Positions 51,001 to 64,000 of a DNA stretch of 64,000 nucleotides are shown here, piece after piece. The position numbers were made by a program. Each line of letters begins with the position of its first letter. Within the stretch, counting starts at the first letter, position 1. The stretch comes from Nitrospirota bacterium. GTDB lineage: Bacteria; Nitrospirota; Thermodesulfovibrionia; Thermodesulfovibrionales; Dissulfurispiraceae. The stretch spans positions 15,870 through 79,869 of the forward strand of contig JBFLWF010000012.1 of assembly GCA_040758355.1 (NCBI GenBank), read 5' to 3'.

Positions 51001-54000
51001 ATTCATAAAGACCTGCGACATTTTGTTTTCGTCGATCATTACATCAGGGATACTGTCTGACAGGTCGTTAACGACTTTGATGTTCTTTTTTGAGGCCGGG
51101 TAACTGAGCAGGACAAGCAGGCGATTTATAAGATTATTCAGATTTACAGGAGCCTTCTCTGTAACCGTCATCCTCGAGAAATCTAAAAGCTGTTCTACGA
51201 TGTTCTTTATTTTCTGGAGGCTATCATTGATTGCCTGAACGAGCTTTTCCTTCGTTAAGTTATCCACATTGGCTTCCATTAGATTTTTAAAACACAGCGT
51301 AATACCGCTCAATGGATTGTTTATCTCGTGCGCAACACCCGAGGCAAGTCGTCCAATGGATACCATCTTCTCTGTCTGGCCGAGCACCTCTACAGTCTTC
51401 TTTCGTTCTCTCTCGGCCTCCCTGAGCCTCTGCATCATCCAGAGAAAGCTCTTCTGAAGCTCGCCAAGTTCATCACGTCTGTCTTCAAACGCTGGAAACT
51501 GCTGTTCGAGATCTCCATGCGTCTTTATGCCATCCATTATCTTTGAAAGCCTTATTACCGGCTTTGAAAGCACTTTTGCTCCAATGCTTATAATCGCAAG
51601 AGAAATTACGGAAAAGAACAGCACAAGCCGTATTATCTCTTTCTTCAGATTGGCTATGGATTCCTGAACCTCCTTTGTGGAGATCCCGATCCTCAAAGCA
51701 CCCCAATTTTTCGTGCTGATATTAAGAGGGGTTGATATATTAATCACGGGGTCGTCTTTAAAACTTGATGCGGTAATAGATGTTTTGAGCGTTGAAAGGG
51801 CATTCAGAGTGTACTTGTCCTGGCAGAACAGTCCAAATTCGGCTATGTTGCTGTGGGCAAGAATATTTCCGCTGTTGTCGATAACAGCTACATACTTTAT
51901 CCTTTTGTCGCGCTCCATTAAATTCATTATGTAATAGTCGAGAAAGTCAACAACATCCTGTTGATCCATCATGCCCAATTCCTTATAAACCATGACATTC
52001 GTCAACATGAGCCTGCTTATTTCGGCAAATGCCTTTCCCTGGTTGATAATGTCCTGCCTGTATAATCTCTCTTCCCTTGAGATGATGGCGAAGCTTCCCG
52101 TTAAGGTGAAAACAAAGATACAGAACGAAGCAACAAGGATGAATTTCCCCTGAAGGCTAAACATCCATACCTTTATTTTTTGAAATATTGTCTTCACGGT
52201 ATTTTTACGCCTTCTTTATCCAGATATTCCATCATCTTGCGTACAGGCTGGTAATCGGAATCTGCTGCCTCTGCAAATCCATATCTGAATTCTTCATCCC
52301 ACTGCTCCATTATCTTGCGGTGTTCTGGATTGTTATAGTCCAGAGAAAGGAGCGCCCTTTTTATAGCATCAACGAGTTTATATGATGCATCTGCCCGCAC
52401 CACTATAGGCAGCCCGGGTATTGGATCAGAAAAAGCTATGGTCTTCAGTCCCCTGTTCTTAAACCTGTTGGCAACAGAGTCTATGACAACGCCTACGTCA
52501 AAATTCCCCCTCAAAACTTCTCTCGCAACAGAATCGTGGTATCTGAAGTTTGCCCGCCGCGAAAGGTCTCCAAGCCTTATATGCGCATTGGAATACAGAT
52601 AATAAAGGGGTGTGAGGTACCCGGATGTCGATAATTTAGATGCAAAGGCAACAGACCTGCCTTTGAGATCGGAAAGATTGTTTATCCTTGTATTGTCAGA
52701 CCTTGCTATAAAAACGCTTCTGTAATACGGCTTGCCGTCATGCCCTAATGGCTTGAGTATCGGGACTAACTGGCACTGCTGTTTTGCTTCGAGGTATGTA
52801 ACGCCGCCGAGCAATGCAACCTGAACAGTGCCGTCCCTAAGAAAACTTATAATATCCCTGTAGTCCTGACTGAGCTTTAGTTCAAACCTGTATGGCGTAT
52901 TCTTGGTGAGGTAGTCCATCAGAGGCTGGTATTTCTGGTACATCACAATAGGATGATAAAGGGTTATGGCGCTGAAATAAACGGTCTCGGCAGGTTCGGC
53001 AATGGATATAGAAGGAATGGAAAGCAGTATAAGCAGAATAAACAGAATGATACGACTAAAACTCATATCTTAATTGTAAATAAATATTGTCATTTTTATC
53101 CAGTTGCCCGAACTGGCTCCATCTCTCTCCTTCGCCAAAGATGTTCCCTCCTACTGCTGCCCATATGTGGTCGGAGAAGTTATATTTGATCTCCGGATTC
53201 AGCATGTAATCTCCGTCTGACGGACTGTAAAAAGAGAAGAAGCTGAGCCTTAAATTCTGGTGCATTAAAAATTGTGTAAGTCTTACAGTTGCAAGCTGAT
53301 AAAATCTTTTGTCTATAGGAAGTCCGGCAGGCTGATTTTTCTTATATTCTGAATAGTCATGCATGTATTCTCCATAATATTGAAGTCCTATTGTGAAATC
53401 CTCCCATATCTGTTTTTGATAGCCAATAAGAAGCCGTGTCTGAGAATTTGGTATCGTGTAATCTTTTCCGCTTCTGTCCTGCCTTGAGTCATAATAGCCT
53501 GCCTCAAGGCTCAAGACTCCATCCAGAGCCCTTCCCTGAAGGCTCGCACCGTAAACGGATAATTCAGGGTAATGGAAGGTAATTTTAGTTGTGTTATTAA
53601 GGTCATCGGGTATCATATATGGCTTGCGGAAATAGCCCCTGTAGAAATACACCGATGCATCAAAACCTGCTATGTCTCTGTAAACCCTCAAGGCTAATTC
53701 GGTATTTTCAAAGGTTGTGGCAGGGTCTTTTTCTTCTCTATTCGTGACATTCGGCATGGGGTCGAACATGTAAAACCTCTTTGAGTCTGAATAATTGTTT
53801 GGCTCAAAGATTGGTATTGCAATGAATTCAAAGGATGCAAAATCCGGATAGGCGCCAATCTTTATACCGTCAATACCTTTCTTTAAATACTCCAATGGCC
53901 TTCCCGAGAAGAATGCCTCGTAGTCCTTTGGAAATACATCGTTTATAAAAAGAAGGTCTCCAAGCCCCCATGTGATTACCTGCCTGCCTATCCTTAGATC

Positions 54001-63000: not shown

Positions 63001-64000
63001 TGCCCGCGGAACCTGCCCTTTGACAATTGAGAAAACACCGTCTCCAGACGCAACAAGCCTCACCTTTTGTCCCTTTTTAAGGGCAGCATCTGCGAGCTTG
63101 AATATGGTGTGGGTGTTTTCAAAACTGTACGGCGTTGTTGAAAGAAACATCACTATCTCCCTTTCCATTTTACCTCCCCCTTAACGAATTAAAATGTTAA
63201 TACCCTGTCGCTCTCCTTCAGCATGGCGTGCATGTCCTTAAGTCCGGCAACGGGACAGATGTCTGTAGGCCCCGCATTCCTTAATTTCAGACATGTCCCG
63301 CAAGCGAATATCTTTCCTCCTGCTGCAAGGAAATCCTTCATCTGCTGTGTAACCGGAAATTTCTCGGTATCAAGGGACTCTGCTTCCACACCCTTGCCTG
63401 TTAGAAAAACCTTTACCTCGTCACCTTCCTTCATGGCGAAATTGCCATATCTAAAGGCATTCCATACGGTCTCAGGATCGTTCGAATAGATAATAATTCC
63501 AATCTTCATCAATGCCTCCTTTTACCTGGATATTTACCTTTTTTTGTTACAGGACAACATGCAGGAGCAGGCAGCTCCTTCCTGTAGTCCTTTTTCAAAA
63601 GCTCGATGATGTCCGGGATTATAGGGTCTTTGAGGAAATAGCACCTGAGCCTTCCATCCATATAATGGTCAATAACACCATGTGTTCTTAAAATGGACAG
63701 ATGCTGTGAGACATTGGGCTGGCTAATCTCAAGAAATTCTTCAAAATCGCTTACACACTTAACCCCCTTTGTCAGCTCATCGAGTATCCTTATTCTTACA
63801 GGATGGGCAATGATTTTTAAAAGCTCTATCCTCTTTCCTATCGAACGCATTTAAATTACCTCCATTTATATGCTTAGCCTGTTCAACAACTCGCTAAGCC
63901 TTGAAAATCAAGGTTCTGCGAGTATATTCTGATTTTCTTTTACCGCAAATCCTGTTAAAATATCTCATCTTAATTCCATATGGAGGCCTTTAGATGAGAA

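What a model noticed while it worked through the whole genome (the two positions that open the first line are those of the whole stretch)
53056..63850. Conserved operon couples sulfide:quinone reductase and DsrE(Sec)/DsrEFH sulfur relay to a three-layer MMPL/RND - LolA-li [...]
Genes g01422-g01435 form one minus-strand block: ArsR regulator, three DsrE-type proteins (one with an in-frame TGA, the known Sec form) and DsrH, a type-I-like SQR, an MMPL/Patched-type RND pump, two small similar periplasmic proteins, a 464-aa YeeE-type channel, a LolA-like periplasmic carrier (DUF1329/TP_0789 type) and a 412-aa outer-membrane barrel without family. I read it as an envelope-spanning machine that moves hydrophobic zero-valent sulfur (S8/polysulfane) between the outside and the SQR/DsrE relay at the inner membrane, i.e. 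a candidate for the unknown first step (sulfur acquisition or release) of elemental-sulfur disproportionation in Nitrospirota. No sulfur-transport role has b [...]
Evidence so far: Gene order and domains from the tables: g01430 41% identical to Aquifex and A. ferrooxidans SQR; g01425 26% to TP_0789 LolA-like; g01429 MMPL, Patched, Sterol-sensing. neighbours.tsv: MMPL within 2 genes of DsrH in at least 25 of 316 genomes of the order but only 36 of about 200,000 genomes overall; Pyr_redox_2 next to DsrH 90 of 316 in the order, 217 overall. Six-frame search of the family: orthologue of the pump (46-84% id) in 15 of 67 other genomes (8 of 24 genera, this genome's included). In all 8 relatives whose region I fetched tblastn finds DsrE/DsrH-SQR-MMPL-LolA-like-OM barrel in the same order (ArsR seen in 6 of 8); YeeE plus the small proteins are present in 4 of 8. 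A paralogous O [...]
(Added by a program. Inside this text positions count along the whole contig: contig position 15,870 is position 1 of the stretch shown here. "Call 12" and the like, gene names such as g00115 and contig names such as C1 are that model's own, and its searches are not shown. The text may have been shortened before it was handed on; [...] marks where a part breaks off. The agent that wrote the report below was given it as the finding of a first reader that could run no searches.)

Follow-up and report, generated by a model that had tools for sequence, protein, structure and literature searches.

The report
Sulfide-oxidation operon with envelope exporter
A groundwater-type Nitrospirota genome carries one gene block that joins a sulfide-oxidising enzyme and selenium-containing sulfur carriers to a three-part pump for greasy molecules, a candidate for the still unknown route by which elemental sulfur leaves a bacterial cell.

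Summary
The block is real: 14 same-strand genes at window 53056-63850.

New here:
- The pump clade sits beside sulfur genes in many phyla. 34 of 37 loci with enough flank carry a DsrE-type, SQR, YeeE, TauE or CCG gene. Other phyla use a different, type-III-like SQR.
- In the family this SQR is found only next to the pump: 14 of 14 genomes, 0 of 52 pump-less ones.
- The LolA-like protein is predicted to cap the periplasmic mouth of an 18-strand barrel (score 0.90, best control 0.01).
- Natural pump-LolA fusions exist (58 proteins; locus L058).

Best reading: a mobile, ArsR-controlled sulfide-handling cassette whose Ame-like exporter removes apolar zero-valent sulfur made by SQR. Cargo and direction are inferred.

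A role specific to sulfur disproportionation is not supported: RND pumps export, and dsrA was not found in 5 of 5 carrier genomes from other phyla.

This scan reported the same system before on other DNA. My searches found no paper describing it.

The parts
63509..63850 (-). ArsR/SmtB-family regulator, 113 aa, with conserved Cys32, Cys70 and Cys98-Cys99
   Evidence: HTH_5 E 5.2e-12; NF033788 73.1 bits, over its cut-off. The position of SqrR Cys41 / BigR Cys42 is Asp24 here. The four Cys are kept in nearly all of the Nitrospirota-type orthologues at 58-95% identity.
63189..63512 (-). DsrE-family protein, 107 aa, with a C-G-T-C motif
   Evidence: PF02635 E 1.3e-11. Sequence.
62824..63168 (-). 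DsrE-like selenoprotein, 114 aa; TGA at 62950-62952 read as Sec; motif U-T-G-C
   Evidence: Read-through translation. PF02635 E 5.8e-13. 20 of 22 related ORFs end at TGA followed by G-x-C and about 40 more in-frame residues. tRNA-SeC lies at C17:30918-31015. The UXXC DsrE-like selenoprotein family is listed in the tables of PMC1088965.
62461..62814 (-). DsrF/TusC-like protein, 117 aa
   Evidence: PF02635 E 8.8e-12. TIGR03010 E 4.3e-7, below its cut-off.
62169..62450 (-). DsrH/TusB-like protein, 93 aa
   Evidence: PF04077 E 7.8e-9. TIGR03011 E 1.1e-9, below its cut-off.
60887..62074 (-). Sulfide:quinone oxidoreductase, type-I-like, 395 aa
   Evidence: 3hyv E 9.9e-95 over residues 3-390. The GVSCFGP and the second catalytic Cys stretch align with those of the Aquifex enzyme. 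The last ~34 residues of the Aquifex enzyme have no counterpart.
58476..60803 (-). MMPL/HAE3-like RND inner-membrane pump, 775 aa
   Evidence: PF03176 E 9.2e-31. TIGR00921 202.7 bits, cut-off 351.9. 258 of 775 positions are at least 97% invariant in 63 sequences, including Asp288/His291/Glu295/Tyr297 and Asp676/His680.
58073..58474 (-). Small signal-peptide helical protein, 133 aa, no Cys, ends G-I-G
   Evidence: No Pfam hit. Alignment A3. The protein atlas gives only unnamed clusters.
56615..58024 (-). YeeE/YedE-family (Sulf_transp) membrane protein, 469 aa from TTG; the two halves lie in swapped order relative to the Pfam model
   Evidence: PF04143 E 2e-20, two stretches. Domain order seen. 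A second 469-aa frame of the same layout lies at C15:42556-43926.
56205..56618 (-). Small signal-peptide helical protein, 137 aa, ending in Gly-Cys
   Evidence: 8 of 12 aligned homologues end G-C or G-C-A/G. Model pLDDT 84, helical bundle. Best structural match Z 6.1, within noise.
55399..56211 (-). LolA3-type periplasmic protein (PF17131), 270 aa, with a signal peptide and no lipobox Cys
   Evidence: PF17131 E 9.1e-67. The profile hits P. gingivalis LolA3 9tp6 at E 3.7e-55. Predicted to bind the barrel. Fused to the pump in 58 database proteins and in L058.
54752..55402 (-). Class I SAM-dependent methyltransferase, 216 aa, cytoplasmic
   Evidence: Methyltransf_11 E 3.1e-17. Closest solved structure 1vlm, E 1.7e-44, function unknown. 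Homologues in 22 of 81 loci, often next to SQR.
54291..54776 (-). CBS-pair protein; ORF 161 aa, true start probably later
   Evidence: PF00571 E 4.1e-23, two stretches. Present in 3 of 81 loci.
53056..54294 (-). Outer-membrane 18-strand beta-barrel, 412 aa, with an invariant G-R-Q-x-x-T-W-G loop
   Evidence: Model pLDDT 91.8, pTM 0.85. OpdQ 3t24 Z 22.5 (rmsd 3.1, 295 aligned), AlgE Z 21.2, Wzi Z 18.8. Pfam hits only below cut-off. Invariant columns.
49257..53066 (-). Downstream same-strand genes: PhnD-like periplasmic binding protein (52194-53066), Cache/HAMP histidine kinase (50707-52197) and a 480-aa ORF (49257-50699) that I did not scan
   Evidence: PF12974 E 3.9e-62; HisKA and HATPase_c. 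The three follow the barrel gene in several Nitrospirota loci: PhnD in 8 loci, the kinase in 8 and the third ORF in 7.

Best explanation
This is a self-contained, horizontally spread sulfide-handling cassette under an ArsR-type thiol-rich repressor.

Proposed mechanism:
1. SQR oxidises sulfide at the inner membrane, passing electrons to quinone. It makes zero-valent sulfur as a persulfide or polysulfane, which without an acceptor grows to apolar chains or S8.
2. The cytoplasmic DsrE(Sec)-DsrF-DsrH set and the extra DsrE take up reactive sulfane sulfur. The YeeE channel and its small periplasmic partners are an optional module for moving sulfane sulfur across the inner membrane.
3. The MMPL/HAE3-type pump, driven by the proton gradient, picks the apolar sulfur species out of the membrane.
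4. The pump hands it to the LolA3-like protein, which sits as a cap on the periplasmic mouth of the 18-strand barrel. The sulfur then leaves the cell.

Shown: gene content, conservation, co-distribution, the predicted LolA-like/barrel complex, and natural pump-LolA fusions.

Inferred: the cargo, the direction, which side of the membrane SQR faces, and what the regulator senses.

My odds: about 0.8 that the trio serves sulfide or sulfane-sulfur metabolism; about 0.4 that its cargo is zero-valent sulfur itself and is exported.
For: 1. The block is real and tightly packed. Many stops and starts overlap or lie within 50 bases.

2. The link crosses phyla. 80 loci carry a pump relative. Their record titles name Nitrospirota, Rokubacteria/Methylomirabilota, Elusimicrobia, Deltaproteobacteria, Omnitrophota, Ignavibacteriae, Bdellovibrionales and Betaproteobacteria. 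Unbiased clustering of neighbouring ORFs in these 80 loci plus the window gives: barrel 58, LolA-like 50, ArsR 45, SQR-like 36, DsrF/H 27, methyltransferase 22, N-terminal piece of Sec-DsrE 21, DrsE_2 18, YeeE 14, TauE 7, DsrM/DsrK-like pair 4. Of the 37 loci with at least 3 kb upstream and 4.5 kb downstream, 34 hold at least one sulfur-trafficking gene.

3. A non-orthologous SQR takes the same place elsewhere. The 23-31%-identical SQR-like genes next to the trio in other phyla score best on the type III SQR model, at 205-245 bits (below the 525-bit cut-off of that selenoprotein-subtype model); the window's SQR scores 97 bits on it.

4. Co-distribution in the family is complete. This SQR is found in 14 of 68 genomes, each time 11-118 bases from the pump gene on the same contig. 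It is found in 0 of 52 pump-less genomes. In the 2 pump-bearing genomes without it, the match is cut off: at the very start of its contig in G024, and as a partial match on a short contig in G063.

5. The trio behaves as one machine. The LolA-like/barrel complex scores ipSAE 0.90 in three runs (0.89-0.90), against a best control of 0.01. The runs agree in at least 89% of contacts, and partner pLDDT is at least 88. That mark was reached by 116 of 157 solved complexes and 2 of 215 mismatched pairs. The interface uses all periplasmic turns of the barrel plus its invariant G-R-Q-x-x-T-W-G loop, and the most conserved stretch of the LolA-like protein. 58 database proteins of about 1030-1050 aa carry both MMPL and LolA_like domains. 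Locus L058 has one 1064-aa frame with both.

6. Control: the genome's second barrel-LolA-MMPL trio (21/32/25% identity) sits among cyclic-nucleotide signalling genes with no sulfur gene. The sulfur link therefore belongs to this clade, not to the architecture.

7. A related four-part HAE3 system, AmeABCD, exports apolar monoterpenes (PMC6394551: abstract and passages).

8. How Chlorobaculum makes extracellular S0 is called an 'unknown mechanism' in the abstract of PMC12285230.
Against: - No experiment or expression data bears on this system.
- The cargo rests only on gene neighbourhood.
- By a rough alternate-residue estimate, the barrel's lumen-facing strand residues are 32% charged and 35% polar, with only 23% hydrophobic. 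That resembles a water-filled channel, not a greasy tube.
- The DsrE-type proteins and the methyltransferase lack signal peptides. Their cytoplasmic chemistry is not obviously connected to a pump that, like known RND pumps, should load from the membrane or periplasm.
- Only 14 of 81 loci have YeeE to bridge the two compartments.
- The regulator lacks the SqrR/BigR sensing Cys. It carries a C-terminal Cys-Cys pair of the kind I recall from As(III)-binding ArsR proteins.
- 3 of 37 well-flanked loci have no sulfur gene nearby.
- The cassette is dispensable: it was not found in 52 of 67 family genomes or in a complete genome of the same genus.
Confidence: 0.4

Rival explanations
1. The trio exports a capped, organic or methylated sulfur (or selenium or arsenic) species, not bare S0. 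Sulfane sulfur held on the Sec-DsrE relay would be methylated by the SAM methyltransferase. The resulting apolar methyl polysulfanes would enter the membrane and be pumped out.
For: - Methyltransferase homologues occur in 22 of 81 loci. They lie next to SQR of both types in Deltaproteobacteria and Rokubacteria loci (L016, L017, L022, L044, L050, L059, L061).
- All DsrE-type proteins and the methyltransferase are cytoplasmic by sequence. This fits a cytoplasmic product that must then leave.
- The ArsR carries a Cys-Cys pair.
- The relay is a selenoprotein.
Against: - The methyltransferase is missing from 59 of 81 loci, so it is not core.
- Its closest solved relative has no known function.
- It scores far below the cut-offs of the ArsM models.
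- No arsenic or selenium resistance gene lies in the block.
Confidence: 0.2
2. One reading: the trio takes up external elemental sulfur and feeds it to SQR and DsrE, as the first step of sulfur disproportionation.
For: - The genome has dsrAB and several YeeE/TusA/DsrE loci.
- Its family holds a known disproportionator (table in PMC12998232).
Against: - All characterised RND/MMPL pumps export (established knowledge; Ame, PMC6394551).
- The cassette was not found in 52 of 67 family genomes or in G019.
- It is present in phyla where dsrA was not found, 0 of 5 genomes over cut-off.
- SQR with menaquinone runs towards sulfide oxidation (thermodynamics, my knowledge).
- The 2026 survey of disproportionation markers does not mention SQR, RND or outer membrane: 0 occurrences each.
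Confidence: 0.1
3. The trio moves an envelope lipid or other hydrophobe, as HpnN, MmpL and Bst systems do. This would remodel or protect the outer membrane under sulfide stress. Sulfur genes are neighbours only because both respond to the same signal.
For: - Known HAE3/MMPL cargos are lipids; hopanoid, sterol and mycolate transporter models score weakly.
- LolA3 has a hydrophobic groove and no known partner (PMC13103446, passages).
- Pseudomonas DUF1302/DUF1329/RND genes are co-fit on Tween 20 (bioRxiv 10.1101/2020.07.04.188060).
- The barrel's predicted lumen-facing strand residues are polar.
Against: - No lipid-synthesis gene recurs among the neighbour clusters.
- SQR never occurs without the pump in the family.
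- A different SQR type is recruited in other phyla.
Confidence: 0.2
4. There is no functional link. The genes merely travel together on a mobile island.
For: The distribution is patchy (15 of 67 family genomes), while the pump is 66-82% identical across phyla.
Against: - Partner genes have diverged to 36-57% identity while gene order is kept.
- Different SQR types, DsrE types and regulators have been joined to the trio independently.
Confidence: 0.05

Closest known systems
AmeABCD apolar monoterpene efflux system of Castellaniella defragrans (PMC6394551), and the co-fit DUF1302/DUF1329/BNR/RND genes of Pseudomonas
   Same: Both have an inner-membrane HAE3-type RND pump without a classical membrane-fusion protein, a LolA-superfamily periplasmic protein and an outer-membrane barrel, encoded together. 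The inferred cargo is apolar. A barrel/LolA-like complex was also predicted for the Pseudomonas pair (PMC10866462, figure-legend passage).
   Different: - There is no AmeC/BNR (Ycf48-like) fourth protein in the block.
- The LolA-like protein is the short PF17131 type (270 aa against 451 aa for AmeB).
- The barrel is 412 aa against 605 aa and misses the DUF1302 cut-off (17.8 against 23.2 bits).
- The neighbours are sulfur genes, not terpene catabolism genes.
SQR operons under persulfide-sensing ArsR repressors (SqrR of Rhodobacter capsulatus, BigR of Xylella)
   Same: An ArsR-family regulator sits at the head of an operon with SQR and sulfur-handling or membrane-transport genes. SqrR (6o8k) and BigR (3pqj) are among the best structural-database hits.
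   Different: - The sensing Cys of SqrR and BigR is Asp24 here. This regulator has its own conserved Cys32/Cys70/Cys98-99 set.
- There is no persulfide dioxygenase or rhodanese in this window.
- The output includes an envelope exporter.
DsrEFH / TusBCD sulfur relay, including DsrEFH type II of the YTD cluster (PMC13293266)
   Same: Three consecutive small genes lie in E-F-H order with DsrE, DsrE and DsrH Pfam domains. A YeeE-family gene lies in the same block.
   Different: - The active-site position carries Sec in a UXXC motif.
- No tusA lies in the block; all TusA hits are on other contigs.
- The genes sit next to SQR and an RND trio. The words 'rnd', 'arsr' and 'selenocysteine' do not occur in the main text of that paper.
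- By sequence it is only remotely like A. vinosum DsrE (2hy5, E 0.63).
P. gingivalis LolA3 (PDB 9TP6, PMC13103446)
   Same: Same Pfam-type fold family; the profile hits it at E 3.7e-55. It has a hydrophobic groove and does not pair with LolB.
   Different: LolA3 has no assigned partner or function in that paper, where 'rnd' and 'mmpl' occur 0 times. Here the partner genes are adjacent and a barrel complex is predicted.

Membership tests
Type I sulfide:quinone oxidoreductase | Full-length similarity to solved type I SQRs (Aquifex, A. ferrooxidans) | tested here: met
   3hyv E 9.9e-95 over 3-390; 3sy4 E 3.4e-93.
Type I sulfide:quinone oxidoreductase | The two catalytic cysteines (Aquifex Cys156 and Cys347; numbering recalled) | tested here: met
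   G-V-S-C-F-G-P aligns identically, and the second Cys aligns in the C-L-M-D / C-I-A-D stretch (alignment).
Type I sulfide:quinone oxidoreductase | Complete C-terminal amphipathic membrane anchor | tested here: inconclusive
   The protein ends where Aquifex residue ~396 of 430 aligns. Membrane binding was not testable.
DsrEFH / TusBCD sulfur relay | Three adjacent genes of DsrE, DsrF and DsrH type in that order | tested here: met
   PF02635, PF02635, PF04077; TusC and TusB models below cut-off.
DsrEFH / TusBCD sulfur relay | Reactive Cys in the E subunit | tested here: inconclusive
   A TGA-encoded Sec within UXXC occupies the candidate site. Equivalence to DsrE Cys78 was not shown, because the sequence match to 2hy5 is only E 0.63.
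DsrEFH / TusBCD sulfur relay | Heterohexamer that passes sulfur to DsrC or TusE | not testable with these tools
YTD cluster / DsrEFH type II (PMC13293266) | Synteny with tusA and yedE | tested here: not met
   No TusA hit lies on contig C12; there are seven hits on other contigs. A YeeE-family gene is present.
AmeABCD-type tetrapartite HAE3 system | HAE3-family RND pump | tested here: inconclusive
   TIGR00921 is the best model, but at 202.7 bits against a cut-off of 351.9.
AmeABCD-type tetrapartite HAE3 system | DUF1302 outer-membrane protein | tested here: not met
   PF06980 17.8 bits against a 23.2 cut-off. The fold is nevertheless an 18-strand barrel.
AmeABCD-type tetrapartite HAE3 system | DUF1329 / LolA-superfamily periplasmic protein | tested here: met
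   PF07044 27.2 bits against a 23.1 cut-off; PF17131 224.7 bits.
AmeABCD-type tetrapartite HAE3 system | Fourth, BNR/Ycf48-like periplasmic protein (AmeC) | tested here: not met
   No such domain in any of the 16 ORFs scanned.
SqrR/BigR persulfide-sensing ArsR repressors | Sensing Cys pair at the SqrR Cys41/Cys107 positions | tested here: not met
   Asp24 aligns with the Cys of M-I-M-C-Y-L (SqrR) and M-L-V-C-T-L (BigR). Other conserved Cys are present.
DsrE-like selenoprotein family (UXXC) | In-frame TGA in a UXXC motif, conserved in homologues, in a genome with Sec machinery | tested here: met
   family listed in PMC1088965. The fold of the region after the TGA did not stand out (z -0.37).
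YeeE/YedE (Sulf_transp) transporters | Pfam PF04143 over cut-off | tested here: met
   74 bits against a cut-off of 27, in two stretches in swapped order.

The most novel reading that the evidence does not exclude
The MMPL pump, LolA3-like cap and 18-strand barrel are a dedicated exporter of elemental sulfur. That would be the first molecular route for zero-valent sulfur across a Gram-negative envelope. In this reading the exporter is loaded from SQR in the membrane, and perhaps from a selenocysteine DsrEFH complex docking on the pump's cytoplasmic face. The cassette would have spread by gene transfer among anoxic groundwater bacteria of many phyla.
Probability: 0.35. Interest if true: 0.9.

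Novelty: new variant of a known kind. Interest (0 to 1): 0.72.

Why it matters
How insoluble elemental sulfur gets out of (or into) Gram-negative cells is an old open question for sulfide oxidisers, sulfur reducers and disproportionators. The abstract of a 2025 paper still calls extracellular S0 globule formation in Chlorobaculum an 'unknown mechanism' (PMC12285230).

This cassette gives a concrete, testable candidate with only three transport genes. It also has a predicted stable barrel/cap complex and natural fusions that can guide constructs.

It would also:
- give a function to the orphan LolA3-type proteins;
- show that SQR in these anaerobes is never kept without the pump;
- flag a selenocysteine DsrEFH that standard gene calling cuts short.

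Tried and rejected
- **SqrR/BigR-type regulator:** rejected. 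The sensing Cys position is Asp in the window's ArsR and Thr in the second ArsR type of other phyla.
- **SECIS hairpin after the TGA:** the fold is no better than shuffles (z -0.37). I rely on the conserved read-through instead.
- **Promoter and terminator scan:** counts equal those of shuffles, so it says nothing on operon limits.
- **Upstream of arsR:** the contig ends there.
- **Expression:** no RNA holder is listed for the stretch. I did not lay reads.
- **Small periplasmic proteins:** no Pfam or NCBIfam family over cut-off. The protein atlas gives only unnamed clusters. The best structural match, Z 6.1, is within the noise for helical proteins.
- **Pump against solved structures:** no hit at E 1e-5.
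- **Methyltransferase:** the closest solved protein has no known function.
- **Foldseek on the barrel:** only generic porins and AlgE.
- **Conserved Cys in the pump** as a covalent sulfur site: none is invariant.
- **Literature searches that found no description of the pairing:**
  - no paper held 'MMPL' together with the sulfur terms;
  - 0 papers;
  - none on this pairing;
  - none on a transporter for S0;
  - 2 papers listed, neither on this.
  - Subscription papers (for example the Umezawa descriptions of Dissulfurispira) and all supplements were not seen.

Full report
**What is there**

The finding's coordinates are window coordinates. From 63850 down to 53056 the minus strand carries an unbroken run of ORFs with overlapping or closely spaced stops and starts. 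Pfam and NCBIfam give, in order of transcription:

- an ArsR/SmtB regulator;
- a DsrE-family protein with a C-G-T-C motif;
- a DsrE-like gene with an in-frame TGA at 62950-62952 that reads through as U-T-G-C;
- a DsrF/TusC-like and a DsrH/TusB-like gene;
- an SQR;
- an MMPL/Patched-type RND pump whose best NCBIfam model is HAE3 (202.7 bits, below the 351.9 cut-off);
- a small signal-peptide protein;
- a 469-aa Sulf_transp (YeeE-family) protein;
- a second small signal-peptide protein;
- a LolA_like (PF17131, E 9.1e-67) protein;
- a class I SAM methyltransferase;
- a CBS pair;
- a 412-aa protein with no family over cut-off.

The same-strand run goes on into a PhnD-like binding protein, a histidine kinase and one more ORF (49257-53066). 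The contig ends 150 bases upstream of arsR.

**The parts, checked one by one**

*SQR.* It matches the Aquifex and A. ferrooxidans enzymes at E 9.9e-95 and 3.4e-93, with both catalytic Cys stretches aligned. It stops about 34 residues short of the Aquifex C-terminus.

*The Sec codon.* It is real by comparison. 20 of 22 ORFs in the cluster of N-terminal pieces end at TGA followed by G-x-C and about 40 more in-frame residues, in Nitrospirota and Rokubacteria loci alike; the other two are spurious GC-rich frames. The genome has a tRNA-SeC. A UXXC DsrE-like selenoprotein family has been listed since 2005 (tables of PMC1088965). The RNA fold after the TGA does not stand out.

*The 412-aa protein.* It models with pLDDT 91.8 and pTM 0.85. 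It aligns best with 18-strand monomeric barrels: OpdQ Z 22.5 (rmsd 3.1, 295 aligned), AlgE Z 21.2, Wzi Z 18.8.

*The LolA-like profile.* It hits P. gingivalis LolA3 (9TP6) at E 3.7e-55. That protein has a hydrophobic groove, does not bind LolB and has no assigned function (PMC13103446, passages).

*The regulator.* SqrR and BigR are among its structural-database hits, but the sensing Cys of both aligns with Asp24 here. Instead, Cys32, Cys70 and a C-terminal Cys98-Cys99 pair are kept in nearly all of the Nitrospirota-type orthologues at 58-95% identity (one of the 18 has lost one Cys of the pair). Other phyla use a second ArsR type with a different Cys pair.

**Is the trio one machine?**

One complex job gave the LolA-like protein on the barrel at ipSAE 0.90 (runs 0.89-0.90), with a best control of 0.01. 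The runs agree in at least 89% of contacts, and partner pLDDT is at least 88. That mark was reached by 116 of 157 solved complexes and 2 of 215 mismatched pairs, and the counts hold only roughly because my own alignments were used.

The contacts cover every periplasmic turn of the barrel and its invariant G-R-Q-x-x-T-W-G loop. On the other side they cover the most conserved stretch of the LolA-like protein. The protein therefore looks like a cap on the periplasmic mouth, not a free shuttle. I know of no solved complex of this kind, so a pass from memory seems unlikely, but I cannot exclude it.

Independent support comes from natural fusions:
- A search among longer proteins found 58 proteins, nearly all of about 1030-1050 aa, that carry both MMPL and LolA_like domains, with LolA parts 31-76% identical to this one.
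- Locus L058 has a single 1064-aa frame in which the pump runs through a hydrophobic segment into the LolA-like domain.
- Two of my 81 pump ORFs are such fusions. A third long ORF is an upstream extension.

**Is it tied to sulfur?**

The pump has relatives in 80 fetched loci. Their record titles name Nitrospirota, Rokubacteria/Methylomirabilota, Elusimicrobia, Deltaproteobacteria, Omnitrophota, Ignavibacteriae, Bdellovibrionales and Betaproteobacteria (these are MAG labels as deposited).

I called ORFs around each pump gene and clustered them without reference to the window. The recurrent neighbours, out of 81 loci including the window, are:

| Neighbour | Loci |
|---|---|
| barrel | 58 |
| LolA-like | 50 |
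| ArsR | 45 |
| SQR-like | 36 |
| DsrF/H | 27 |
| methyltransferase | 22 |
| Sec-DsrE N-terminal piece | 21 |
| DrsE_2 | 18 |
| YeeE | 14 |
| small proteins | 12 |
| four-helix membrane protein, no family | 10 |
| TauE | 7 |
| NarI-like + CCG (DsrM/DsrK-like) pair | 4 |

Many loci are short, so these are lower bounds.

Further points:
- Among the 37 loci with at least 3 kb upstream and 4.5 kb downstream, 34 have at least one sulfur-trafficking gene. Two of the three exceptions keep only the ArsR.
- The distant SQR-like genes next to the trio in other phyla score best on the type III SQR model, at 205-245 bits against 97 for the window's enzyme (both below that model's 525-bit cut-off). A different SQR lineage has therefore been joined to the same trio.
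- In several loci a signal-peptide rhodanese-like protein lies between the small protein and YeeE.
- Control: the genome's own second trio (21/32/25% identity, its pump fused to a cNMP-binding domain) lies among cyclic-nucleotide signalling genes with no sulfur gene.

**Distribution**

- In the family, the pump is found in 15 of 67 other genomes and 8 of 24 genera. It is not found in G019, a one-contig genome of the same genus.
- In the order, 87 of 317 genomes (G000 included) match at E 1e-150. Of these, 16 have only a 40-48%-identical match.
- This SQR is found in 14 of 68 family genomes, each time 11-118 bases from the pump gene on the same contig, and in none of the 52 pump-less genomes. 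In the two pump-bearing genomes without it, the pump match is cut off: at the very start of its contig in G024, and as a partial match on a short contig in G063. Kin are not independent, but the 14 genomes span 7 genera.
- In five carrier genomes of other phyla, no dsrA over cut-off was found; their completeness is unknown. The window's genome does have dsrAB.

**How it most likely works**

SQR makes zero-valent sulfur at the membrane. Reactive sulfane sulfur is taken by the Sec-DsrE/F/H set. Where present, YeeE with its small periplasmic partners moves sulfur across the inner membrane. The sulfur that would otherwise grow into apolar chains or S8 in the membrane is removed by the proton-driven pump through the LolA3-like cap and the barrel.

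The pump keeps the charged residues expected of a working RND proton relay (Asp288, His291, Glu295, Tyr297, Asp676, His680 invariant; assignment by position). The closest characterised system, AmeABCD, exports apolar monoterpenes (PMC6394551). Direction and cargo are inference.

**What speaks against it**

- There are no expression or experimental data.
- The strand faces predicted to line the barrel are polar: 32% charged, 35% polar, 23% hydrophobic, by a rough alternate-residue estimate.
- The DsrE proteins and the methyltransferase are cytoplasmic, while only 14 of 81 loci have YeeE.
- The regulator's Cys pattern would also suit a metalloid.
- The cassette is dispensable.

The recurrent methyltransferase, often next to SQR, keeps open the reading that the cargo is a methyl-capped polysulfane. 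A lipid cargo cannot be excluded.

A role as the sulfur-acquisition step of disproportionation fits poorly:
- known RND pumps export;
- the cassette occurs in lineages where dsrA was not found;
- it is absent from most of the family;
- the 2026 survey of disproportionation markers does not mention SQR, RND or outer membrane (PMC12998232, 0 occurrences each).

The general idea, an envelope route for zero-valent sulfur coupled to SQR and DsrE, stands and is strengthened.

**Novelty**

The enzymes, the Sec-DsrE family and the Ame-type architecture are each known. DsrEFH type II of the YTD cluster was described in 2026, but with tusA and yedE and without SQR adjacency, RND or selenocysteine in the main text (PMC13293266). 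Here tusA is absent from the contig.

I found no paper that joins an MMPL/HAE3 trio to SQR or DsrE. Supplements and subscription papers were not seen.

This scan has reported the same system at least nine times on other genomes, with the same reading. Two of those notes gave me leads that I tested here: the pump-LolA fusion and LolA3.

I class it as a new variant of a known kind of transporter, with a possibly new cargo.

Noticed in passing
window 56205-56618 and 58073-58474; loci L001, L031, L047, L049, L051, L052, L060: The small periplasmic helical proteins come in two kinds. 8 of 12 end in Gly-Cys(-Ala/Gly) and 4 end G-I-G with no Cys at all. The window has one of each flanking YeeE. A C-terminal Cys on a tail recalls the SoxY carrier arm (recalled), although the fold is helical and matches nothing known.
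   Followed up: partly
loci L004, L005, L031, L036, L045, L047, L049, L051, L052: A signal-peptide protein with a rhodanese-like active-site stretch lies beside the small protein, upstream of YeeE. Weak similarity had pulled it into the ArsR cluster. It is absent from this window.
   Followed up: no
window 58476-60803 against loci L022, L030, L041: The pump is 78-82% identical between Nitrospirota and Rokubacteria or Omnitrophota loci, while the LolA-like protein is 54-57% and the barrel 36-42%. 258 of 775 pump positions are at least 97% invariant in 63 sequences. Why the pump is so much more constrained than its partners is unexplained.
   Followed up: partly
G000 C1:49012-53250 (locus L081 5677-10695): A second barrel-LolA-MMPL trio. 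Its pump is 907 aa with a C-terminal cyclic-nucleotide-binding domain, and it lies among cNMP-binding, GAF-HD and phosphoesterase genes.
   Followed up: partly
G000 C4:90483-91460: A full-length Sulf_transp (YedE-type) match with two in-frame TGA codons, possibly a selenoprotein form.
   Followed up: no
G000 C15:41037-44197 and C1:175945-176933: Other sulfur-relay loci. One has a DsrE hit, a second 469-aa YeeE-family frame of the same swapped layout and TusA on C15. The other has TusA plus two DsrE hits about 12 kb from dsrAB on C1. A 44%-identical paralogue of the methyltransferase lies at C15:52496-53128.
   Followed up: no
loci L002 6096-8115, L010 12313-14215: A NarI-like membrane protein plus an Fe-S/CCG protein (a DsrM/DsrK-like pair) is inserted between the pump and the LolA-like gene.
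   Followed up: partly
loci L007, L044, L059, L061 (e.g. L044 7507-7971): A roughly 155-aa Cys-rich protein with no Pfam family precedes SQR or the methyltransferase in Deltaproteobacteria-labelled loci.
   Followed up: no
window 49257-53066: A PhnD-like periplasmic binding protein, a Cache/HAMP histidine kinase and a further ORF follow the barrel gene with overlapping stops and starts. They do the same in several Nitrospirota loci. They may sense the cargo or an unrelated signal.
   Followed up: no
loci L031, L047, L049, L052: A DUF3373 outer-membrane protein (E 6.9e-116) follows YeeE. This hints that the small protein, YeeE and this barrel form a second envelope module.
   Followed up: no
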